DNA of 64,000 nt, taken from positions 155,464-219,463 of the forward strand of contig JAKPXB010000040.1 of NCBI GenBank assembly GCA_029570375.1, in the 5' to 3' direction. A program made the position numbers and the translations under genes. A model generated the notes under the pieces. It was not told the origin of the DNA and ran no database searches. It saw only the letters and a list, made by a program, of their open reading frames with translations. This document shows, in pieces, positions 41,367 to 50,319 of this stretch (the stretch's first letter is position 1; every line of letters starts with the position of its first letter). Source of the stretch: Bacillota bacterium (lineage in GTDB: Bacteria > Bacillota > Clostridia > Saccharofermentanales > DTU023).

Positions 41367-42125
41367 TCACGACAGGAAGCGCGGGACCATACCCAGCAGC
41401 TTGTCGAGACTGTCAATCATGGGAATACGGCCGCGCATAGCGATATTCCCTTTCCCGATACACGTATAGCTGTCGAGATCTCCGTTCAGCAGGCCAAAGG
41501 CCGTCTCGAACGAATCGAACATCATCGCGGCCCGCGCGTTCGCGTTTCTGCCCTTTGCCGCGCGAAGACTGCCTTTTTCCGCGATAAGATGGAGTCCGAA
41601 ATCATCACCGACTGTCACATTGACAATTCCTTCTTCCATTTTTCCGGCAATCCGCTGCCCGGTTTCATCGTAACGAGAAATCTCCGGTACGGCGAAAAAG
41701 GCTGTATAGGCAGTCAGAATCGTGCTTTTCTCGAGGAACCCCTGTTCTTTTTTTATCCTCTCCCGATCAGGTTTCAGATAGCTCTCCAGCTGTCCCGCCA
41801 GAAATGTAAACGTTTTTTTCAGAAATCCGATATGCCGAAACCCTTTGGTCGGCAGCGGGTTCTTCTCGCCGGCGACCATCAGATTCAGGTGTTCCGGAGA
41901 TGAAAACCGAAGATTCATGTCGCAGGGAATATTCTCCCCCCGACGGGCACTGCATTGTCCGTCATGGAAAGTCAGCACCAGCCGGTCAATCCCGGGAACG
42001 GAGAATCGGATCGCGGCCTCGTGGCCGCGTATGGCGTTCGCAGACGCCTCATCGAGCTGACAGAGATCTTCCATGTTCCGGAGCAAAGCGTGCAGATTAA
42101 TCGCCGCTTTTACCGCTTCATTCAT
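41367..42125 (-). CDS. Unknown protein, SCP2-like C-terminal region; paralog of 37415..38206
   Basis: I chose ATG 42125 (MNEAVKAA), downstream of GAAGGAGG. The C-terminus AAMMFDSFETAFGLLNGDLDSYTCIGKGNIAMRG resembles the SCP2 sterol-carrier fold. Confidence 0.5.
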   Translation of the reverse strand: MNEAVKAAINLHALLRNMEDLCQLDEASANAIRGHEAAIRFSVPGIDRLVLTFHDGQCSARRGENIPCDMNLRFSSPEHLNLMVAGEKNPLPTKGFRHIGFLKKTFTFLAGQLESYLKPDRERIKKEQGFLEKSTILTAYTAFFAVPEISRYDETGQRIAGKMEEGIVNVTVGDDFGLHLIAEKGSLRAAKGRNANARAAMMFDSFETAFGLLNGDLDSYTCIGKGNIAMRGRIPMIDSLDKLLGMVPRFLS

Positions 42126-42219
42126 AATAATCACTCCCTCCTTCGCAGATCGTATGACTTTATTACATTAAGATTGTCTGCAAACCTTGATACGCTCATG
42201 TTTTACAGATAATGGATTA

Positions 42220-42357: not shown

Positions 42358-42386
42358 TTGTCACAATACATAAAACCTGATAATAT
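42358..42386 (+). promoter_or_regulatory. Promoter candidate for pntAA
   Basis: TTGTCA-17 nt-TAATAT, about 40 nt upstream of the pntAA start. Confidence 0.5.
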
Positions 42387-42428
42387 ACAGTCGTATCGAT
42401 AACTAAGTTCACGCAGGAGGTGCAAAAT

Positions 42429-43595
42429 ATGATTATCGGTGTTCCAAAGGAAATCATGGTTGGTGAAAGACGCGTTGCGGCTTCGCCCGAAACGGTAAAG
42501 AAAATGGTCGGCGACGGCTTGACTGTCCTTATCGAAAAAGAGGCCGGAGAAGGCGCTTTTTACCATGATCCGGAATATGTGGCAGCAGGAGCGGAAATAG
42601 TAGAGAACGTGGCTGATCTCTTCGATCGCGCGGATGTCATCCTGAAAGTAAAAGAACCGCTCTTCAATGAGAAACAAGGTAAGCACGAAGTCGACCTCAT
42701 GCATGAAGGCCAAGTCATTATTACATTCATTCACCCCGCCGCGCCGGTCAACCATGACATGGTGAAACATATGGCTGAATGCGGCATTACAAGCATCACG
42801 CTCGACGGCATCCCCCGCATCACGCGCGCGCAGGCGATGGACGCGCTGACCTCCATGAGCACATGTGCAGGCTACAAGGGCATGCTGATCGCGGCCAATG
42901 AACTGCCGAACTTCGTCCCGCAGATCTTCACAGCTGTCGGTATGATTAAGCCGATCAACGTCCTCGTCATCGGGACAGGTGTCGGCGGACTCCAGGCGCT
43001 CGCCACAGCGAAACGCCTCGGCGCCGTCGTTTACGCCGCGGATATCCGCCCGGCTGCCGCTGAGCAGGCGATGTCACTCGGCGCGAAGGTCGTCGACCTC
43101 GGCGTCCCTCCTGAGGAAGCCATCGGCGAAGGCGGATACGCCCTGATGCTTTCACCGGAGCGCCTCGAAGCCGAGCGCGAGATCCTCGCCGAGAAAGTCA
43201 AGGATATGGACATTATTTTCCTTTCCGCGCTCGTCCCCGGCAAACTCGCCCCGATCCTCATCACCGAAGAGATGGTCAAATCCATGAAGCCCGGATCCGC
43301 GATCGTCGATATCTCAATCGACCAGGGCGGCAACTGCGAGATCACCCCTTCCGGCACGATCGAAGTGAAACACAACGTGACACTCATCGGCATCAAGAAT
43401 ATCCCCGGACTGCTTCCGAAGAGCTCGACATGGATGTTCTCCCAGAACATCTACAACCTGTTGAAGTACCTGATCAAGGACAACCAGATTTACCTCGACA
43501 TGGAGGATCCGATCGTCCAGCAGGCGCTCACAACGTACCAGGGCAAAGTCGTCCACAAAGGTGCGCTTGAGGCCTTCGCCGCGCTTGGTCATTAA
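42429..43595 (+). CDS. pntAA: NAD(P) transhydrogenase subunit alpha part 1 (dI, NAD(H)-binding)
   Basis: MIIGVPKEIMVGERRVAASPETVKKM..., VLVIGTGVGGLQALATAKRLGA. ATG 42429 lies 8 nt after AGGAGG; the track begins at a GTG at 42420. Confidence 0.9.
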   Translation: MIIGVPKEIMVGERRVAASPETVKKMVGDGLTVLIEKEAGEGAFYHDPEYVAAGAEIVENVADLFDRADVILKVKEPLFNEKQGKHEVDLMHEGQVIITFIHPAAPVNHDMVKHMAECGITSITLDGIPRITRAQAMDALTSMSTCAGYKGMLIAANELPNFVPQIFTAVGMIKPINVLVIGTGVGGLQALATAKRLGAVVYAADIRPAAAEQAMSLGAKVVDLGVPPEEAIGEGGYALMLSPERLEAEREILAEKVKDMDIIFLSALVPGKLAPILITEEMVKSMKPGSAIVDISIDQGGNCEITPSGTIEVKHNVTLIGIKNIPGLLPKSSTWMFSQNIYNLLKYLIKDNQIYLDMEDPIVQQALTTYQGKVVHKGALEAFAALGH

Positions 43596-43787: not shown

Positions 43788-44090
43788 ATGACAACTACAC
43801 AGGCCATCCTTCTGGGCGTCTTCGTTGTGGCGACGCTGGTTGGCTACAAAATTATCACGCGCGTCCCGAGTCTGCTGCATACGCCTCTGATGTCAGGCAT
43901 GAACGCCTTTTCCGGCGTCACCGTCCTCGGATGTCTCGCCGCGACAGCGGCCGCGGCGCACTGGGGCAGCAAAATCCTCGGCTTTCTGGCGATCGTCCTC
44001 GCGATGATTAACGTCGTCAGCGGATTCGGTGTGACACACCGTATGCTGAGAATGTTCCACAGCAGTTCGAAGAAAGGGGCAGAAAAATGA
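43788..44090 (+). CDS. pntAB: NAD(P) transhydrogenase subunit alpha part 2 (membrane dIIa)
   Basis: 100 aa with three predicted TM helices, ...LLHTPLMSGMNAFSGV.... RBS AAAAGGAGA. The stop overlaps the pntB start (ATGA). Confidence 0.85.
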   Translation: MTTTQAILLGVFVVATLVGYKIITRVPSLLHTPLMSGMNAFSGVTVLGCLAATAAAAHWGSKILGFLAIVLAMINVVSGFGVTHRMLRMFHSSSKKGAEK

Positions 44091-46711
44091 TACATACCAT
44101 CTCCCGCATGGTTCTCGAAGCCATGCCTGCCCTCACAGTGGTTAATACAGGATCACAGACGTTCTACTACATCGCCGCGGGCGTGTTGACTGTTCTCGTC
44201 CTCGTCGGGATCTCCATGATGAGTAAAGTGGAAACCTCCGTTGTCGGGAACGCGCTTGGCGCGACAAGCATGTTTCTCGCTATTGTGCTGACACTCTGGT
44301 ATTTCGACATTCTTACGGTCTGGCTTCTCTATGCCGCCATGCTCGTCGGTCTTCTGATCGGTATTGTCGCGTCGATCCGCGTCAAGATGATTCAAATGCC
44401 GCAGATGGTCGGCCTGCTGAACGGATTCGGCGGCGCGGCCTCCATGCTCGCGGGTATTCTCACGCTGATTGCCGCCAGCCCGGATGAAACCGTCTTCTCA
44501 CTTCTGACATCCGGTCTCGCCATTTTCGTCGGCTCACTGACGCTGACAGGAAGCCTTGTCGCCGCGGGCAAACTCCACAAAGTTCTCCCGCAGCGCCCGA
44601 TCGTCCTGAGGAACCACCAGCTCTGGACGGCTCTCTCGCTCATCCTCTCGCTTGTAACCGTAGTGCTTCTCGGTATTCCCACTCTGCTGGATATCGCTGT
44701 TCTGAAGATCGTCTTGCTAATCGGGTGCGCGGTTTTTTCCGGCGCGTTCGGCGTGATCTTCGCGATCCGCGTCGGCGGAGCCGATATGCCGATCACGATT
44801 TCTCTCCTGAACTCTTTCTCCGGTGTCGCCGGCTCCATCGCCGGTATGGCGATCGGCGATCCGCTCCTCGTCGCGGTCGGCGGTGTGGTCGGAGCGTCCG
44901 GCCTCCTGCTGACGCAGATCATGTGCCGAGCGATGAACCGCAAGCTCTTCGACATCCTTCTCGGCAAAACGTCGGTCGCCGGCGCGCCTGCCGCGAAGAA
45001 ACCGGAACAGCCGAAAGCCGAGAAAGCGGCTCCCGTCAAAGCGGAAAAAGCGGTCCTTTCTCCGGAAGAATGCTGTGGCTGCTGGCTGCGTGACGCTGAG
45101 CGCGTCATCATCGTGCCCGGGTACGGCATGGCCCTTTCTCAGGCGCAATCGACGGTGAAACAGCTCATGTCCGAACTCGAAGCGGCAGGTAAAGAGGTCA
45201 AGTTCGCGATTCACCCGGTGGCCGGCCGTATGCCCGGCCATATGAATGTGCTCCTGGCTGAAGTCGATATCCCCTACGACAAACTCTATGAGATGCAGGA
45301 TATCAACGATGAGTTCAAAGACACCGATGTCGCGATCGTCATCGGCGCGAACGATGTCATCAATCCCGCCGCGAATACAGCGGAAGGCACCCCGATCTAC
45401 GGCATGCCGATCCTCAACGTCGTGGAATCGAAACACGCGGTCATCTGCAACTTTGACAAACTCCCCGGCTACGCCGGCGTCGACAACCCACTCTATGAAG
45501 AGGGCAAAGAAGACCGAATCGCGCTGATGCTCGGCGATGCGAAAGAGACACTCAACGCGATTATGAAATCCTATCGTTCATCAGGCGAAAAGACCGCCGA
45601 AACAGCGGCCGGCTCCGATGCCGCGATGACGCCGGAACTCCATTGCGGACAATGGCTCCGCGACGCGGAACGGGTCATTATCGTTCCCGGATACGGCATG
45701 GCGCTCTCACAGGCGCAGTCCATCGTCAAACAGCTCATGATGGATCTCGAAGCAGAAGGCAAAGACGTCAAATTCGCGATTCATCCCGTCGCCGGCCGCA
45801 TGCCCGGACATATGAACGTGCTGCTCGCCGAGGTCGATATTCCATACGACAAACTCTATGAGATGCAGGATATCAACGATGAGTTCAAAGACACCGACGT
45901 CGCGATCGTCATCGGCGCGAATGACGTCATCAACCCCGCCGCCAACACCGCGGAGGGCACACCGATCTACGGCATGCCGATCCTTGATGTCGCCGACGCC
46001 AAGCACGTGATCATCTGCAACTTCGACAAACTTCCCGGCTATGCCGGCGTCGACAACCCGCTCTACGACGAGGGACAGGAAGACAAGATCGCGCTCATGC
46101 TCGGCGACGCGAAAGAAACGCTTCAGTCGATTATCGGGGCTTTCCGCGTCTGCGAAGTCCCGCAGCCCGCCGCTGACGGCGGACAAACGGCTGAGCAGAT
46201 TTGCGGCTCGTGGCTGAACGACGCGAAACGGGTCATCATCGTCCCCGGTTACGGCATGGCGCTCTCACAGGCGCAGTCTATCGTGAAGCAGCTCATGGCA
46301 GAGCTCGAATCGGCGGGAAAAGACGTCAAATTCGCGATCCACCCCGTCGCCGGCCGTATGCCCGGCCACATGAACGTGCTGCTCGCGGAAGTCGACGTCC
46401 CCTATGACAAACTTCACGAGATGCAGGACATCAACGGCGAATTCAAAGACACGGACGTCGCGATCGTCATCGGCGCGAACGATGTCATCAATCCCGCCGC
46501 GAATACCGCGGAAGGCACGCCGATCTACGGCATGCCGATCCTTAACGTCGCCGACGCGAAGCACGTGATCATCTGCAACTTCGACAAACTCCCCGGCTAC
46601 GCCGGCGTCGACAACCCGCTCTACGACGAGGGACAGGAAGACAAGATCGCCCTGATGCTCGGCGACGCGAAAGAAATGCTGAACGCGATCATCAACGCCT
46701 ACCGCTGCTGA
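44087..46711 (+). CDS. pntB: NAD(P) transhydrogenase subunit beta with THREE tandem dIII (NADP(H)-binding) domains, 874 aa
   Basis: The N-terminal ~300 aa form the multi-TM dII. The block WL.DA.RVIIVPGYGMALSQAQ...HPVAGRMPGHMNVLLAEV...IGANDVINPAA...LPGYAGVDNPLY then occurs three times, separated by short Ala/Glu/Pro linkers. Confidence 0.85.
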   Translation: MIHTISRMVLEAMPALTVVNTGSQTFYYIAAGVLTVLVLVGISMMSKVETSVVGNALGATSMFLAIVLTLWYFDILTVWLLYAAMLVGLLIGIVASIRVKMIQMPQMVGLLNGFGGAASMLAGILTLIAASPDETVFSLLTSGLAIFVGSLTLTGSLVAAGKLHKVLPQRPIVLRNHQLWTALSLILSLVTVVLLGIPTLLDIAVLKIVLLIGCAVFSGAFGVIFAIRVGGADMPITISLLNSFSGVAGSIAGMAIGDPLLVAVGGVVGASGLLLTQIMCRAMNRKLFDILLGKTSVAGAPAAKKPEQPKAEKAAPVKAEKAVLSPEECCGCWLRDAERVIIVPGYGMALSQAQSTVKQLMSELEAAGKEVKFAIHPVAGRMPGHMNVLLAEVDIPYDKLYEMQDINDEFKDTDVAIVIGANDVINPAANTAEGTPIYGMPILNVVESKHAVICNFDKLPGYAGVDNPLYEEGKEDRIALMLGDAKETLNAIMKSYRSSGEKTAETAAGSDAAMTPELHCGQWLRDAERVIIVPGYGMALSQAQSIVKQLMMDLEAEGKDVKFAIHPVAGRMPGHMNVLLAEVDIPYDKLYEMQDINDEFKDTDVAIVIGANDVINPAANTAEGTPIYGMPILDVADAKHVIICNFDKLPGYAGVDNPLYDEGQEDKIALMLGDAKETLQSIIGAFRVCEVPQPAADGGQTAEQICGSWLNDAKRVIIVPGYGMALSQAQSIVKQLMAELESAGKDVKFAIHPVAGRMPGHMNVLLAEVDVPYDKLHEMQDINGEFKDTDVAIVIGANDVINPAANTAEGTPIYGMPILNVADAKHVIICNFDKLPGYAGVDNPLYDEGQEDKIALMLGDAKEMLNAIINAYRC
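45083..45580 (+). repeat. pntB dIII copy 1 (aa ~333-498)
   Basis: First unit of the intragenic tandem triplication. The conserved Trp codon is at 45083. Confidence 0.85.
45653..46150 (+). repeat. pntB dIII copy 2 (aa ~523-688)
   Basis: The equivalent Trp codon is at 45653 (570-bp offset). It differs from copy 1 at many synonymous third positions. Confidence 0.85.
46211..46708 (+). repeat. pntB dIII copy 3 (aa ~709-874)
   Basis: The equivalent Trp codon is at 46211 (558-bp offset). The unit runs to the natural C-terminus. Confidence 0.85.
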
Positions 46712-46951: not shown

Positions 46952-49006
46952 ATGAAAGAGATTTATAAACCGCTGTTTACCCCATGGAAAATCGGCAATG
47001 TCGAGATGAAGAACAGGATTGTCATGACATCGATGGGCGGCACCTCCATCTTCGGCTGGATGGAACCGAACCATTTTGACCGGGAGGCCGCCCGTTTTCT
47101 ACTGGAGCGGGCGAAGAACAACGCCGGCCTGATCCTTCCCGGCATCGCGCCGGTCCGCAACATTCTTTTCGGCCAATGGCTTTACAAGGGTCAGCGCAAA
47201 TTCGACCAGCTCGCGGCATACATGCAGGAATTTCACAAGACGGGCGCGAAGATGTTCATTCAGCTCACGGCGGGGTTCGGCCGCTCGCTCGCGATCAACG
47301 ACATCATGATCAAAGCGCTGAAGAACAAGGCGCTCGCCGCCGTGATGAAACCTTTTCTCGACGTCAGCTATCTAACGGCAAGCGCGAGCGCGACGCCGAA
47401 CCGGTGGTATGACGGCGTCCATTCCCGGCCGCTGACAGTCGGGGAGATCGAGGAAATGGTCGACGCGTTCGCCCGGACGGCAAAGCTTTGCATGGACGCC
47501 GGTGTCGACGGCATCGAAGTACACGCGGTGCACGAGGGATACCTCCTCGACCAGTTCACCATGAAGTACACGAACCTCCGCACGGACGAGTACGGAGGCA
47601 CTTTTGAGAACCGCTACCGCTTCCCCGTCGATATTGTCCGCGCGATCAAGGCGGCGTGCGGAAACGACTTCCCCGTATCGCTCCGCTATTCTGTCGTTTC
47701 CAAAACGAAAGGTTTCGGCAAGGGCGCGCTTCCGGGCGAAGACTATGAGGAAGCAGGACGCGATATGGAAGAGAGCATCCGGGCGGCGAAGTATCTGCAG
47801 GACGCGGGCTACGACATGCTGAACTGCGACAACGGGACGTACGACGCCTGGTACTGGAGCCATCCCGCGCCCTATATGCCGCAGAACTGCAATCTCCCCG
47901 ATGCCGAATACCTCAAACCTCATATCCACATTCCCATCGTCTGCGCCGGGCGCATGGAACCGGACGCGGCGGCGCAGTCGATCGGCGCGGGAAAGATCGA
48001 CGCCATGGGCGTCGCGCGCCAGTTCCTGTGCGACAGCGAGTGGGTTACAAAGCTCATGAACGACGACGAAGATTCCATCCGTCCCTGCATCTGCTGTCAT
48101 AACGCGTGTTTCAACATGGCGCATTACGAGGGCGTCGGCAACGACCAGACGCTATCCGACAACGCGGGCATGGCGCGCTGCGCGCTCAACCCCGAGACGA
48201 TGCAGTCGAAGAAATACCGCATCCGGCAGACGGCGCACCCGAAGGATGTCGCCGTCATCGGCGGCGGCATCGGCGGCATGGAAACGGCGCGCGTCCTGAA
48301 ACTCCGCGGGCACAACCCGACTATCTACGAAAAGACAGACAAGCTCGGCGGCGTCTTCGTCTGCGCTTCGACGCCGTCATTCAAGGAGAAGGACCGCGAC
48401 CTGCTCAAATGGTATGAGAAAGAAATCAGCGATCTGAATATCCCCGTCGTTTTCAATACGGAAATCAGCTCGCTCGATAAGATCCGCGCGGATGAGATTG
48501 TCATCGCCACGGGCAGCCGCCCGCGCCGGCTCCCGGTCCCCGGCGCAGAAAAAGCGATCGAAGCGTGCGACTATCTGAGCGGCGCGGCACAGACGGGAGA
48601 CCGCGTCATCATCATCGGCGGCGGGCTCACCGGCTGCGAAATCGCGCTTGACCTTTCGCTGAAGGGCAAGACGCCCGTGATCGTCGAGATGAAGCACGAC
48701 CTCATGGCCGTCCGCGGCCTCTGCCTCGCCAACTCCTCCTATCTGCGCGACTATTTCGCGCTGAACGGAACCGAAATCCACCTCAATACAACCCTTGCGG
48801 AAGTCACCGATACAGGCGTGATCGTCCGGAACAAGGACGGCAGGACCTTCCCCATCGACGGCGACACCGTCCTGCTGTCTGTCGGCTATCTCCCCGACCC
48901 GCTTATCAAGAAATCGCGCCGCGTCCGCCTTGTGGGCGACTGCAAAGACGTCGGCAACCTCCGCACCGTGATCTGGCGCGCCTGGGATGCCGCCATGGCC
49001 ATCTGA
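46952..49006 (+). CDS. OYE-like FMN oxidoreductase fused to FAD/NAD(P)-binding domain (2-enoate reductase family), paralog of 34249..36516
   Basis: MKNRIVMTSMGG, HAVHEGYLLDQF, the Fe-S motif RPCICCHNAC...CALNP, VAVIGGGIGGME and VIIIGGGLTGCE. Confidence 0.85.
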   Translation: MKEIYKPLFTPWKIGNVEMKNRIVMTSMGGTSIFGWMEPNHFDREAARFLLERAKNNAGLILPGIAPVRNILFGQWLYKGQRKFDQLAAYMQEFHKTGAKMFIQLTAGFGRSLAINDIMIKALKNKALAAVMKPFLDVSYLTASASATPNRWYDGVHSRPLTVGEIEEMVDAFARTAKLCMDAGVDGIEVHAVHEGYLLDQFTMKYTNLRTDEYGGTFENRYRFPVDIVRAIKAACGNDFPVSLRYSVVSKTKGFGKGALPGEDYEEAGRDMEESIRAAKYLQDAGYDMLNCDNGTYDAWYWSHPAPYMPQNCNLPDAEYLKPHIHIPIVCAGRMEPDAAAQSIGAGKIDAMGVARQFLCDSEWVTKLMNDDEDSIRPCICCHNACFNMAHYEGVGNDQTLSDNAGMARCALNPETMQSKKYRIRQTAHPKDVAVIGGGIGGMETARVLKLRGHNPTIYEKTDKLGGVFVCASTPSFKEKDRDLLKWYEKEISDLNIPVVFNTEISSLDKIRADEIVIATGSRPRRLPVPGAEKAIEACDYLSGAAQTGDRVIIIGGGLTGCEIALDLSLKGKTPVIVEMKHDLMAVRGLCLANSSYLRDYFALNGTEIHLNTTLAEVTDTGVIVRNKDGRTFPIDGDTVLLSVGYLPDPLIKKSRRVRLVGDCKDVGNLRTVIWRAWDAAMAI

Positions 49007-49047: not shown

Positions 49048-50319
49048 ATGGAACTGACAAAAGAACAACAGGCCATCCTTGACGGCAGCCAGGGAGAGGT
49101 CATGAGCAAAATCATGAAAACGCTCGTGATGTACGGCGAGACTTTCGGCGCGACGAAGATGGTCCCCGTCACGTCCACCTACGGCCACATCGTCACGAGT
49201 TTCGGCGTCATCGTGCTCAAGGGCGTCTTTGAGCTGATGGACGAGCTGATCGCGGGAGGCGTGAAATCCAAACAGCTTTTCTCCGCCGACCCCCGGCCGC
49301 TCGATAAGAAAGTCCCGAAGAACCTCCTGCAGGATCTCGTGTTTCACGTCATGTACGGGCCGCAGAAGCGCTACGAAGAACAGCTGCGGAAGATCGGGCT
49401 GCTCTCCGACGACGCGTTTACATGCGCGTGTTATTTCCCGGAAGTCGGCAACAGGCCGAAGAAAGGCGACATCCTCTCCTGGGCGGAATCGAGCGCCGTC
49501 AACTACGCGAACTCCGTCCTGGGGGCGCGCTGCAACAGAAACTCGGGGATCATCGAAATGTTCGGCTCCATCGTCGGCTACGTGCCGTATTTCGGACTTC
49601 TCACCGACGAAGGGCGCATGGCCTCGTGGATTGTCGAGGTCAGAACGGAGAAAATGCCCGAAGCACAGCTCCTCGGTTCCGCCGTCGGCATGAAGGTGCT
49701 GGAAGACGTGCCTTACGTCAAGGGCCTCGACCGCTGGATCGGAACGGAGCTCAACGACGCGGCCACTACCTACCTCAAGGATTTCGGCGCGGCCACTGCC
49801 TCGAACGGCTCCGTCGGCCTCTACCACATCGACAGGCTGACGCCCGAAGCCGTCGAACACGGCGAGAAACTCATCCGCCCCGACGCAAAGGTTTACGTCA
49901 TCGACGACGCCGAGCTCGAGCGTGTGAAGGCCTCCTATCCCGTTATCTGGAAAAAGAAGGACGCCAAACCGAAGCTCTGTTTCATGGGCTGTCCGCACAT
50001 GACGCTCGCGCAGCTCAACGACTGGACAGACCGCCTGGAGAAAAAACTCCGCGAAAAGAATCTCTCCAAAGTCAGGATAAAAACCGTCTTCACCTCCGCC
50101 CCCGCGGTGATCGAAGCCTTTAACAAGACGGAGCGGAGCCGGAAGCTGAAGGACATGGGCGTCGTTCTCTCCTACATCTGCCCGCTGATGTACATGAACA
50201 ACCCGCTCTGCGCCAAGATGCCCGTCATCACAAACTCCAACAAGCTCCGAACCTACACGTCGTCACGTTATTACACAGACGCGGAAATTCTCGATCAGAT
50301 CACGGGAGGAACAAAATAA
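49048..50319 (+). CDS. Aconitase X catalytic (large) subunit, DUF521 family
   Basis: MELTKEQQAILDGSQGEVMSKIMKTLVMYGETFGA... is typical of the DUF521/AcnX N-terminus. It is followed by an overlapping DUF126 partner. Confidence 0.75.
   Translation: MELTKEQQAILDGSQGEVMSKIMKTLVMYGETFGATKMVPVTSTYGHIVTSFGVIVLKGVFELMDELIAGGVKSKQLFSADPRPLDKKVPKNLLQDLVFHVMYGPQKRYEEQLRKIGLLSDDAFTCACYFPEVGNRPKKGDILSWAESSAVNYANSVLGARCNRNSGIIEMFGSIVGYVPYFGLLTDEGRMASWIVEVRTEKMPEAQLLGSAVGMKVLEDVPYVKGLDRWIGTELNDAATTYLKDFGAATASNGSVGLYHIDRLTPEAVEHGEKLIRPDAKVYVIDDAELERVKASYPVIWKKKDAKPKLCFMGCPHMTLAQLNDWTDRLEKKLREKNLSKVRIKTVFTSAPAVIEAFNKTERSRKLKDMGVVLSYICPLMYMNNPLCAKMPVITNSNKLRTYTSSRYYTDAEILDQITGGTK

What the first reader, a model, noticed from the sequence alone, without database searches (positions are those of the whole stretch)
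45071..46711. pntB carries three tandem, apparently intact NADP(H)-binding dIII domains
**Seen in the sequence.** After the membrane dII domain, the ~166-aa dIII block occurs three times. The conserved Trp codons are at 45083, 45653 and 46211, giving offsets of 570 and 558 bp. The copies are joined by short Ala/Glu/Pro/Gln linkers. All three keep the motifs I associate with NADP(H) binding and hydride transfer in dIII: VPGYGMA, HPVAGRMPGHMNVLLAE, IGANDVINPAA and GYAGVDNPLY. By eye, roughly nine in ten residues are identical between copies. The DNA nevertheless differs at many synonymous third positions. For example, copy 1 reads gtcatcatcgtgcccgggtacggcatggcc, copy 2 gtcattatcgttcccggatacggcatggcg and copy 3 gtcatcatcgtccccggttacggcatggcg. 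That argues against an assembly artefact or a very recent duplication, and for each copy being maintained.

**Established knowledge.** Characterised PntB subunits are ~460-480 aa with a single dIII, and the enzyme works as a dI2-dII2-dIII2 assembly.

**Inference.** A 1:3 dII:dIII stoichiometry would change the coupling architecture, or would provide tethered NADP(H)-binding modules. I do not know of a described example.
Basis: partly seen in the sequence, partly recalled or inferred. Interest (0 to 1): 0.85.

Follow-up and report, generated by a model that had tools for sequence, protein, structure and literature searches.

The report
Transhydrogenase with three tandem dIII domains
A membrane enzyme that normally carries one mobile nucleotide-binding head carries three near-identical heads in a row here; homologues in anaerobes of six or more phyla carry two to five, and no paper I could search describes this.

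Summary
One uninterrupted ORF (44087..46711, 874 aa) encodes a PntB membrane domain (dII) followed by three 169-aa dIII domains, starting at 45074, 45644 and 46202. The copies are 86-90% identical in protein but only 81-86% in DNA. Pairwise dS is 0.59-1.08 and dN/dS is 0.07-0.11, so each copy is old and under strong purifying selection.

It sits in a normal pntAA-pntAB-pntB operon. It is not an artefact and not unique. All 120 best database homologues have 3, 4 or 5 dIII. All 79 complete genes among the best 80 species-representative loci have 2, 3 or 4, including cultured Porphyromonas, Desulfovibrio and Anaerococcus isolates. Six literature searches and one survey paper I read found no description.

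The K-R-S motif of the NADP(H) site is N-F-D in all three. N-x-D marks a large, structurally uncharacterised PntB subclass that contains every intact multi-dIII protein I examined.

Best reading: dIII is the swinging carrier that shuttles between dII and dI. Tandem copies on flexible Ala/Glu/Ser/Pro-rich linkers would act as extra shuttles, as tandem lipoyl or ACP domains do. This mechanism is inferred, not shown.

Verdict: a new variant of a known kind.

The parts
42358..42386 (+). sigma-70-like promoter candidate upstream of pntAA
   Evidence: TTGTCA-17-TAATAT with an extended TG, 9 of 12 matches. This is a consensus match only. The region held 4 such sites against 2.6 expected from shuffles.
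42420..43595 (+). pntAA, the soluble NAD(H)-binding dI subunit (391 aa)
   Evidence: Pfam AlaDh_PNT_N (E 6.7e-43) and AlaDh_PNT_C (E 9.5e-59). Asp208 in the D-I-R-P stretch after the G-x-G-x-x-G motif is invariant in 79 of 79 aligned PntAA sequences. It aligns, from memory, with the NAD-specifying Asp at the end of Rossmann strand beta2.
43788..44090 (+). pntAB, the small 4-TM subunit of dII (100 aa)
   Evidence: Pfam PNTB_4TM, E 8.8e-31. The LHTPLMSGMNA motif containing His31 is found in 68 of 79 related loci. Its stop codon overlaps the pntB start (ATGA), and an AAAGGGG RBS-like run lies upstream.
44087..46711 (+). pntB with one dII and three tandem dIII (874 aa, including the stop codon)
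   Evidence: ORF. PF02233 scores 1028 bits with 3 stretches. Best PDB matches are E. coli PntB 9l76_C (E 8.8e-91) and T. thermophilus 4o9u_B (E 1.6e-87), which cover only residues 22-495.
44087..44965 (+). dII membrane domain of PntB (about aa 1-293)
   Evidence: Aligns to dII of E. coli and T. thermophilus PntB. The AF2 model shows about ten long helices between aa 2 and 282.
44966..45073 (+). dII to dIII-1 linker (aa 294-329, Ala/Pro/Lys/Glu-rich)
   Evidence: Sequence ...KTSVAGAPAAKKPEQPKAEKAAPVKAEKAVLSPEE. AF2 pLDDT is below 50 for aa 293-323.
45074..45580 (+). dIII copy 1 (aa 330-498)
   Evidence: A domain HMM built from the three window copies matches this copy at 372 bits in P0001, a database entry 100% identical to the window protein. 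The N-F-D motif is at aa 455-457 (nt 45449-45457).
45581..45643 (+). linker 1 (21 aa: SGEKTAETAAGSDAAMTPELH)
   Evidence: AF2 pLDDT is below 50 for aa 500-512.
45644..46150 (+). dIII copy 2 (aa 520-688)
   Evidence: Matches T. thermophilus dIII 4j16_C at E 1.4e-51. The N-F-D motif is at aa 645-647 (nt 46019-46027).
46151..46201 (+). linker 2 (17 aa: CEVPQPAADGGQTAEQI)
   Evidence: AF2 pLDDT falls to about 53 around aa 690-700.
46202..46708 (+). dIII copy 3 (aa 706-874); the protein ends with the domain
   Evidence: The N-F-D motif is at aa 831-833 (nt 46577-46585). In 66 of 80 related loci the protein also ends exactly at the last dIII.

Best explanation
This is a real, expressed-type pntAA-pntAB-pntB operon for a membrane, proton-coupled pyridine-nucleotide transhydrogenase of the three-subunit (T. 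thermophilus-like) kind. Its beta subunit carries three equivalent dIII domains on flexible linkers instead of one.

In the accepted mechanism, dIII is a swinging carrier. It docks face-down on dII to exchange nucleotide in step with proton movement. It then detaches with the nucleotide occluded, flips, and docks on dI for hydride transfer.

I propose that the tandem dIII domains are additional shuttles serving the same two stations. A loaded dIII would then more often be available at dI and at dII. This is the principle known from the 1-3 tandem lipoyl domains of 2-oxoacid dehydrogenase E2 chains and from the tandem ACPs of PUFA synthases.

**Shown:** the architecture, its selective maintenance, the equivalence of the copies, the low-confidence (probably flexible) linkers and the wide distribution.

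**Inferred:** that every copy cycles, and that the benefit is kinetic.
For: **Equal and strong constraint on each copy.**
- dN/dS is 0.07-0.11 between copies.
- Across 53 three-dIII proteins, mean between-species identity is 65.1%, 65.0% and 65.0% for copy positions 1, 2 and 3.
- Residues that differ between copies lie at the N-terminal edge, in one surface helix (LMSELEAAG) and in the C-terminal helix, not in the nucleotide loops.

**Nucleotide-site residues are kept.** Y315, H345, P346, A348, G349, R350, D392, G430, N436, D450 and A451 (E. coli numbering) are present in every copy.

**Linkers look like swinging-arm linkers.** Inter-dIII linkers have a median length of 18 aa (range 9-38). Their composition is Ala 23%, Glu 14%, Ser 11% and Pro 9%. 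AF2 gives them low confidence.

**Copy number varies while the operon stays the same.** I counted 2, 3, 4 or 5 dIII, always with one pntAA and one pntAB where the contig reaches upstream. This fits a dosage-type benefit better than three specialised roles.

**The rest of the machine is intact.** dI keeps its NAD-type Asp in 79 of 79 sequences. PntAB keeps the LHTPLMSG histidine. The pntAB and pntB genes overlap in a way typical of translational coupling.

**The arrangement is long-lived.** Copies group by position among close relatives, and homologues occur in six or more phyla.
Against: - There is no biochemical or structural evidence for any multi-dIII enzyme.
- Only dIII-1 is tethered directly to dII. 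Whether distal copies can reach the dII docking site is untested.
- The (dI)2 dimer cannot engage two dIII at once (PMC13635403), so the gain from more shuttles may be small.
- All copies lack the K-R-S motif. Nucleotide affinity, or even specificity, may therefore differ from the enzymes on which the mechanism is based.
- Within-protein copies (85-90% identical) are far more alike than orthologous copies between distant species (65%). Part of the apparent equal constraint could reflect gene conversion rather than independent selection on each copy.
Confidence: 0.55

Rival explanations
1. Only the dII-proximal dIII runs the coupled cycle. The distal copies are accessory. They might act as a tethered pool of tightly bound nucleotide (a redox buffer), as anchors that keep the soluble (dI)2 dimer at the membrane, or as regulators.
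For: Only dIII-1 has the canonical tether to dII. In three-subunit enzymes dI has no covalent link to the membrane. [quoted passage not shown] Two-dIII proteins with a degenerate second domain exist (P0136 and P0137), which shows that a non-catalytic dIII can be tolerated.
Against: All copies keep every catalytic-loop and nucleotide-site residue and are equally conserved. An accessory role would be expected to relax constraint on hydride-transfer residues in distal copies. No position-specific signature appears in the active-site loops.
Confidence: 0.2
2. The N-x-D subclass, including this protein, is not a classical NADH/NADPH transhydrogenase. Its dIII has lost 2'-phosphate recognition. It would either bind NAD(H) or another non-2'-phosphorylated dinucleotide, or bind NADP(H) weakly and release it without help from dII. 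Multiplying dIII would then compensate for, or exploit, that altered binding.
For: K424, R425 and S426 become N, F/Y/L and D. Asn and Asp are invariant in all 461 dIII domains of the 120 multi-dIII homologues, in 74 representative domains and in most single-dIII relatives. Loss of two basic residues together with gain of an invariant Asp is the textbook pattern of an NADP-to-NAD specificity switch (my own knowledge). Every solved dIII structure has K-R-S or K-R-G. All intact multi-dIII proteins I examined belong to this subclass.
Against: dI is clearly of the NAD(H) type. An enzyme with NAD(H) at both sites would carry out no useful reaction, yet the operon is widely conserved. Every other nucleotide-site residue is canonical. 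A Lys, Arg or His often lies 1-2 residues after the Asp and could bind the phosphate. Single-dIII N-x-D proteins are abundant, so N-x-D does not in itself require multiple dIII.
Confidence: 0.2
3. Artefact or decay: the triplication is an assembly error, or two of the copies are recent duplicates on their way to becoming pseudogenes.
For: The window appears to come from a metagenome assembly. The only other copy of this exact gene that I could read (L081) is identical in DNA over 8.6 kb, so it is not independent evidence. L016 and L021 share 96% dII identity but have 3 and 4 dIII, so some MAG assemblies may mis-count copies.
Against: The copies differ at 14-18% of nucleotides, mostly at synonymous sites. 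An assembler cannot create that. There is no stop or frameshift, and dN/dS is about 0.08. The same three-copy layout occurs in 23 orthologues 74-81% identical, with copies grouping by position. Isolate genomes also have it: P. uenonis DSM 23387 and 60-3 (3 copies), and P. circumdentaria ATCC 51356, D. falkowii 13CB8C and Anaerococcus AGMB09787 (4 copies each).
Confidence: 0.02

Closest known systems
Thermus thermophilus transhydrogenase, PntAA/PntAB/PntB (PDB 4O9U, 4O9P, 4J16)
   Same: It has the same three-gene, three-subunit organisation. PntB aa 32-495 aligns at E 1.6e-87, and dIII alone at E 1.4e-51. Asn stands at the position of E. coli beta-His91, and the PntAB LHTPLMSG motif with its His is conserved. 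That this His is the proton-relay residue of T. thermophilus alpha2 rests on my own recollection. The dIII sequence motifs HPVAGRMPGHMNVLLAE and GANDV.NPAA are shared.
   Different: T. thermophilus PntB is 450 aa with one dIII and has K-R-G before loop E. The window protein is 874 aa with three dIII and has N-F-D.
E. coli PntAB (PDB 9L76, 2BRU) and mitochondrial NNT (6QTI)
   Same: It belongs to the same family (E 8.8e-91 to 9l76_C). The domain logic dI, dII, dIII is the same, and so are the conserved dIII nucleotide-site residues.
   Different: These enzymes have one dIII per protomer, a K-R-S motif and dI fused to part of dII. The published mechanism assumes a dI2-dII2-dIII2 stoichiometry.
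Database homologues annotated only as 'NAD(P)(+) transhydrogenase (Re/Si-specific) subunit beta'. Examples: Saccharofermentanales and Clostridiaceae MAGs (P0011, P0036), Porphyromonas spp. (P0026, P0034, P0052) and Desulfovibrio (P0058)
   Same: They share the multi-dIII architecture, the N-x-D motif, the operon layout and the linker character. The closest are 78-81% identical and have exactly three dIII.
   Different: Copy number ranges from 2 to 5. None carries an annotation or a publication noting the repeated domain. One is mislabelled as sirtuin-5 (P0058).
Tandem swinging-arm carrier domains: lipoyl domains of PDH/OGDH E2 chains and tandem ACPs of PUFA synthases (analogy from established knowledge, not homology)
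   Same: Several near-identical mobile carrier domains sit in series on Ala/Pro-rich flexible linkers. Copy number varies between species. The copies are functionally redundant and serve fixed catalytic stations.
   Different: The fold and chemistry are unrelated. Those cofactors are covalently attached, whereas dIII carries a non-covalently occluded dinucleotide and also gates a proton channel.

Membership tests
PntB (proton-translocating NAD(P) transhydrogenase beta subunit, Pfam PF02233) | Significant match to the PNTB model covering dII and dIII | tested here: met
   1028.5 bits against a cut-off of 31.7. The best stretch covers aa 33-494 against profile positions 7-455 of 456, and there are 3 stretches in all.
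PntB (proton-translocating NAD(P) transhydrogenase beta subunit, Pfam PF02233) | Encoded next to partner subunits carrying dI (AlaDh_PNT_N/C) and the small 4-TM piece of dII | tested here: met
   pntAA is at 42420-43595 and pntAB at 43788-44090, immediately upstream. A pntAA match lies upstream in 78 of 80 related loci and a pntAB match in 79 of 80.
PntB (proton-translocating NAD(P) transhydrogenase beta subunit, Pfam PF02233) | Conserved dIII nucleotide-site and hydride-transfer residues (E. coli Y315, H345, R350, D392, G430-Y431-A432, N436, D450) | tested here: met
   All are present in each of the three copies. They are conserved equally in the N-x-D and the K-R classes.
PntB (proton-translocating NAD(P) transhydrogenase beta subunit, Pfam PF02233) | K-R-S (or K-R-G) motif of the NADP(H) site (E. 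coli K424-R425-S426) | tested here: not met
   It reads N-F-D in all three copies, in an ungapped alignment to E. coli, T. thermophilus and R. rubrum. It is N-x-D throughout the subclass. The motif is defined in PMC9529548.
PntB (proton-translocating NAD(P) transhydrogenase beta subunit, Pfam PF02233) | One dIII per beta subunit (dI2-dII2-dIII2 holoenzyme) | tested here: not met
   There are three complete dIII per chain.
PntB (proton-translocating NAD(P) transhydrogenase beta subunit, Pfam PF02233) | A protonatable His in the dII channel | tested here: inconclusive
   The position of E. coli beta-His91 is Asn112 here, as in T. thermophilus. PntAB carries His31 in LLHTPLMSG, a motif conserved in related loci. 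Its equivalence to T. thermophilus alpha2-His42 rests on my recollection of that sequence, not on an alignment made here.
PntB (proton-translocating NAD(P) transhydrogenase beta subunit, Pfam PF02233) | [quoted passage not shown] | not testable with these tools
   This needs an enzyme assay in membranes or proteoliposomes.
Tandem swinging-arm carrier systems (functional analogy only) | Near-identical mobile domains in series on flexible linkers, with copy number varying between species | tested here: met
   Copies are 85-90% identical within a protein. Linkers have a median of 18 aa and are Ala/Glu/Ser/Pro-rich, with low pLDDT. Copy number is 2-5.
Tandem swinging-arm carrier systems (functional analogy only) | Every copy visits the catalytic stations, and throughput scales with copy number | not testable with these tools
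   This needs a truncation and point-inactivation series with activity assays.

The most novel reading that the evidence does not exclude
Multi-dIII N-x-D PntAB enzymes are a distinct, undescribed type of membrane transhydrogenase found in anaerobes. Their dIII modules have given up the 2'-phosphate clamp, so nucleotide affinity or specificity has changed. They work as a chain of diffusing hydride carriers, which breaks the strict two-protomer alternating model derived from the E. coli, T. thermophilus and mitochondrial enzymes.
Probability: 0.2. Interest if true: 0.85.

Novelty: new variant of a known kind. Interest (0 to 1): 0.72.

Why it matters
**Challenge to the current model.** The transhydrogenase mechanism rests on a fixed 1:1:1 domain stoichiometry, with two protomers working in anti-phase. 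A natural family with 2-5 dIII per protomer, kept under strong selection in six or more phyla, shows that this stoichiometry is not obligatory.

**A ready-made experimental series.** Truncating to 1, 2 or 3 dIII, or inactivating single copies, would test how dIII swivelling, nucleotide occlusion and proton gating are coupled.

**A second open question.** The accompanying K-R-S to N-x-D change marks a large PntB subclass with no solved structure and, as far as I know, no biochemistry. Its cofactor preference should not be assumed in metabolic reconstructions of gut, oral and digester anaerobes.

**Practical points.** Annotation pipelines hide the feature, because the Pfam PNTB model spans dII plus dIII. 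Tandem dIII could also serve as a design idea for engineering NADPH supply.

Tried and rejected
- **Tandem Repeats Finder** found nothing, because the 558-570 nt period exceeds its 500-nt limit. The repeat finder and direct alignment replaced it.
- **Independent-assembly check.** The only readable contig carrying the exact protein (L081) is identical in DNA to the window over 8.6 kb. I therefore relied on orthologues and isolate genomes instead.
- **Conserved partner genes.** The OYE/dienoyl-CoA-reductase-like gene, AcnX, the aminotransferase and the split transketolase occur near pntB in at most 5 of 80 loci. I found no functional linkage.
- **Sub-functionalisation of copies.** No position-specific substitutions appear in the nucleotide loops, and conservation is equal at each position. 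Rejected.
- **Swapped cofactor specificity.** The dI Asp after Rossmann beta2 is invariant. Rejected.
- **AF2 model of the whole chain.** With a shallow 20-sequence alignment it gave mean pLDDT 66.7 and pTM 0.36. That is enough for domain boundaries and linker disorder but says nothing about inter-domain arrangement. I ran no fold search, because sequence matches to solved dIII structures are already at E 1e-51.
- **Literature.** Searches on transhydrogenase with dIII, tandem, multiple copies, Porphyromonas, KRS motif and anaerobes, and a eukaryote-focused survey of NTH isoform architectures, gave no description of multi-dIII or N-x-D PntB. The library lacks most subscription-journal papers, so this is absence of evidence only.
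Full report
**1. What is in the sequence**

The region holds a compact three-gene operon on the + strand.
- pntAA (42420-43595) matches AlaDh_PNT_N and AlaDh_PNT_C.
- pntAB (43788-44090) matches PNTB_4TM.
- pntB is an 874-aa ORF at 44087-46711. It matches Pfam PNTB at 1028 bits with three separate stretches.

The pntAB stop and the pntB start overlap as ATGA, behind an AAAGGGG run. A sigma-70-like site lies at 42358-42386.

In pntB a 300-nt direct repeat occurs three times, with spacings of 570 and 558 nt.

The protein is laid out as follows:

| Segment | Residues |
|---|---|
| dII | about 1-293 |
| Ala/Pro/Lys/Glu-rich linker, about 36 aa | 294-329 |
| dIII-1 | 330-498 |
| Linker, 21 aa | 499-519 |
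| dIII-2 | 520-688 |
| Linker, 17 aa | 689-705 |
| dIII-3 (the chain ends here) | 706-874 |

**2. Is it more than chance or artefact?**

The three 169-aa cores align without gaps.

| Pair | Protein identity | DNA identity | Differences by codon position | dS | dN/dS |
|---|---|---|---|---|---|
| 1-2 | 87.0% | 81.5% | 12/10/72 | 1.08 | 0.073 |
| 1-3 | 86.4% | 83.8% | 11/9/62 | 0.80 | 0.087 |
| 2-3 | 89.9% | 86.2% | 12/9/49 | 0.59 | 0.108 |

Copies this diverged at silent sites cannot come from an assembler, and they are not young duplicates drifting towards loss.

The exact protein is on record on three contigs. The one I could read is identical in DNA to the window, so it adds nothing independent.

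Independent support comes from relatives.
- The 120 best hits among 5.8 billion proteins all carry several dIII: 24 have three, 91 have four and 5 have five.
- A scan of one genome per GTDB species kept the best 80 of at least 512 related loci. pntB carried 3 dIII in 51 loci, 2 in 16 and 4 in 12. One gene was cut by a contig end. A pntAA match lay upstream in 78 loci and a pntAB match in 79.
- Carriers include cultured isolates: Porphyromonas uenonis DSM 23387 and 60-3 (3 copies), and P. circumdentaria ATCC 51356, Desulfovibrio falkowii 13CB8C and Anaerococcus sp. AGMB09787 (4 copies each).
- MAG carriers include Saccharofermentanales/Mageeibacillus, Oscillospiraceae, Acutalibacteraceae, Proteiniphilum, Petrimonas, Anaerolineaceae, Riflebacteria and Treponema.
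- In a library clustered at 50% identity, 21 of the top 150 clusters showed two or more dIII stretches, out of 4217 clusters matching dIII. The form is uncommon but not unique.

**3. Evolutionary behaviour of the copies**

Among the 24 close three-dIII relatives, a neighbour-joining tree of the 72 domains groups them mostly by copy position. The nearest neighbour holds the same position in 62 of 72 cases. The triplication therefore predates those species.

There are local exceptions that look like gene conversion: all three copies of P0045, copies 1 and 2 of P0038 and P0039, and copies 2 and 3 of the window protein.

Across 53 more distant three-dIII proteins, copies within a protein are 85-90% identical. 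The same position between species averages only 65%. Over long times the array is either homogenised or rebuilt.

The three positions are equally conserved between species (65.1%, 65.0%, 65.0%). The few residues that distinguish positions lie outside the nucleotide loops. I take this as equal functional constraint on every copy.

One closely related pair has 96% identical dII but 3 versus 4 dIII (L016 and L021). This is either a recent copy-number change or a collapsed MAG assembly.

**4.

In the ungapped alignment to E. coli, T. thermophilus and R. rubrum dIII, the segment just before loop E differs.

| Source | Segment before loop E |
|---|---|
| E. coli | ...VFKRSMNTGYAGV |
| T. thermophilus | ...VIKRGQGKGFAGV |
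| R. rubrum | ...FIKRSMASGYAGV |
| Window, all three copies | ...ICNFDKLPGYAGV |

K424-R425-S426 is the 'KRS motif' listed as part of the E. coli NADPH-binding site (PMC9529548). From established structural work, and on my own knowledge, it holds the 2'-phosphate.

- All 461 dIII domains of the 120 multi-dIII homologues have N-[F/Y/L]-D.
- Comparing 74 N-x-D domains with 86 K-R domains, every other site residue is conserved in both classes: Y315, H345, P346, A348, G349, R350, D392, G430, N436, D450 and A451.
- Only K424N, R425x, S426D, S404T and F439Y separate the two classes.
- N-x-D is not confined to multi-dIII proteins. Single-dIII N-x-D PntB are abundant in Kiritimatiellae, Anaerolineae, Desulfobacterales, Pirellulales, Phycisphaerae, Prolixibacteraceae and Zixibacteria (110 of 118 hits).
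- All intact multi-dIII proteins I examined are N-x-D. The one K-R-S protein with two dIII (P0136) has a degenerate second domain.
- dI is ordinary. The Asp after Rossmann beta2 (D208 in D-I-R-P) is invariant in 79 of 79 PntAA. A swap of specificities between dI and dIII is therefore excluded.
- No solved structure represents the N-x-D class.

**5. How it most likely works**

In the published cycle, dIII attaches face-down to dII, where its site is open and the proton channel is gated. It then detaches with the nucleotide occluded, flips, and meets dI for hydride transfer. (dI)2 engages one dIII at a time (PMC9529548; PMC13635403). dIII is thus a swinging carrier between two stations.

Three observations fit redundant extra shuttles that raise station occupancy:
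- several equivalent, equally constrained carriers;
- flexible linkers, with a median of 18 aa, a composition of Ala 23%, Glu 14%, Ser 11% and Pro 9% and low pLDDT at aa 293-323, 500-512 and about 690-700;
- copy number varying from 2 to 5 around an otherwise unchanged operon.

The same logic applies to tandem lipoyl domains and tandem ACPs (established knowledge). I give this reading about 0.55.

Rival readings:
- The distal copies are accessory, acting as a nucleotide buffer or as anchors for the untethered (dI)2 dimer (0.2).
- The N-x-D site changes affinity or specificity, and multiplication is tied to that change (0.2). This is not exclusive of the first two.
- Artefact or decay (0.02).

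**6. Comparison with what is known, and novelty**

By sequence, operon and motifs this is a PntB of the three-subunit T. thermophilus type. It fails two features that all characterised members share: one dIII per chain, and the K-R-S/G motif.

Six full-text searches and one eukaryote-focused survey of transhydrogenase architectures gave no description of tandem dIII or of the N-x-D class. That library lacks most subscription-journal papers. Database entries carry the plain PntB name, and one is mislabelled as sirtuin-5.

I class this as a new variant of a known kind. It is real, widespread, under selection and mechanistically informative, but its function is inferred only.

**7. Verdict**

| Item | Verdict |
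|---|---|
| Observation | Confirmed |
| Interest | 0.72 |

Noticed in passing
window 45449-45457, 46019-46027, 46577-46585 (N-F-D in each dIII): The K-R-S motif of the NADP(H) site reads N-F-D in all three copies. N-x-D defines a large PntB subclass, with single or multiple dIII, found in mostly uncultured lineages such as Anaerolineae, Desulfobacterales and Kiritimatiellae. The subclass has no solved structure. Its cofactor specificity is an open question.
   Followed up: partly
L016 6001-8526 versus L021 6001-9084: Two Porphyromonas MAG loci have 96% identical dII but 3 versus 4 dIII. This is either a very recent copy-number change or collapse of the repeat in one short-read assembly.
   Followed up: partly
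proteins P0136 (664 aa) and P0137 (659 aa): Both are two-dIII PntB whose second dIII is degenerate: HPVAGR is changed, GYAG is lost, and K-R-G or N-L-A stands in place of the motif. They are possible pseudo-dIII with a non-catalytic role. P0136 is the only K-R-S-class protein I saw with a second dIII.
   Followed up: no
L024 5557-8481, L042 5542-8604; protein P0160 (619 aa): In these, pntAB (the 4-TM piece) is fused in frame to pntB. This gives a single chain of the whole dII plus the dIII domain(s), which is a further architectural variant.
   Followed up: no
protein P0058 (1023 aa, Desulfovibrio sp. MAG): This four-dIII PntB is annotated in NCBI as 'NAD-dependent protein deacylase sirtuin-5, mitochondrial'. 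I read this as a misannotation. Its cause was not examined.
   Followed up: no
window 46952-49006 and 49048-50319: Directly downstream of pntB lie a 684-aa Oxidored_FMN plus Pyr_redox_2 flavoenzyme (of the 2,4-dienoyl-CoA reductase or NADH oxidase type) and an aconitase-X (AcnX) gene. Homologues of the flavoenzyme occur near pntB in only 4 of 80 related loci and AcnX in none, so I saw no conserved linkage.
   Followed up: yes
window 41367-42134 (-): This 255-aa ORF has no Pfam match. It lies between pntAA and a class-III aminotransferase. The same pair, followed by a split transketolase, recurs in about 5 related loci (L029, L034, L038, L067).
   Followed up: partly
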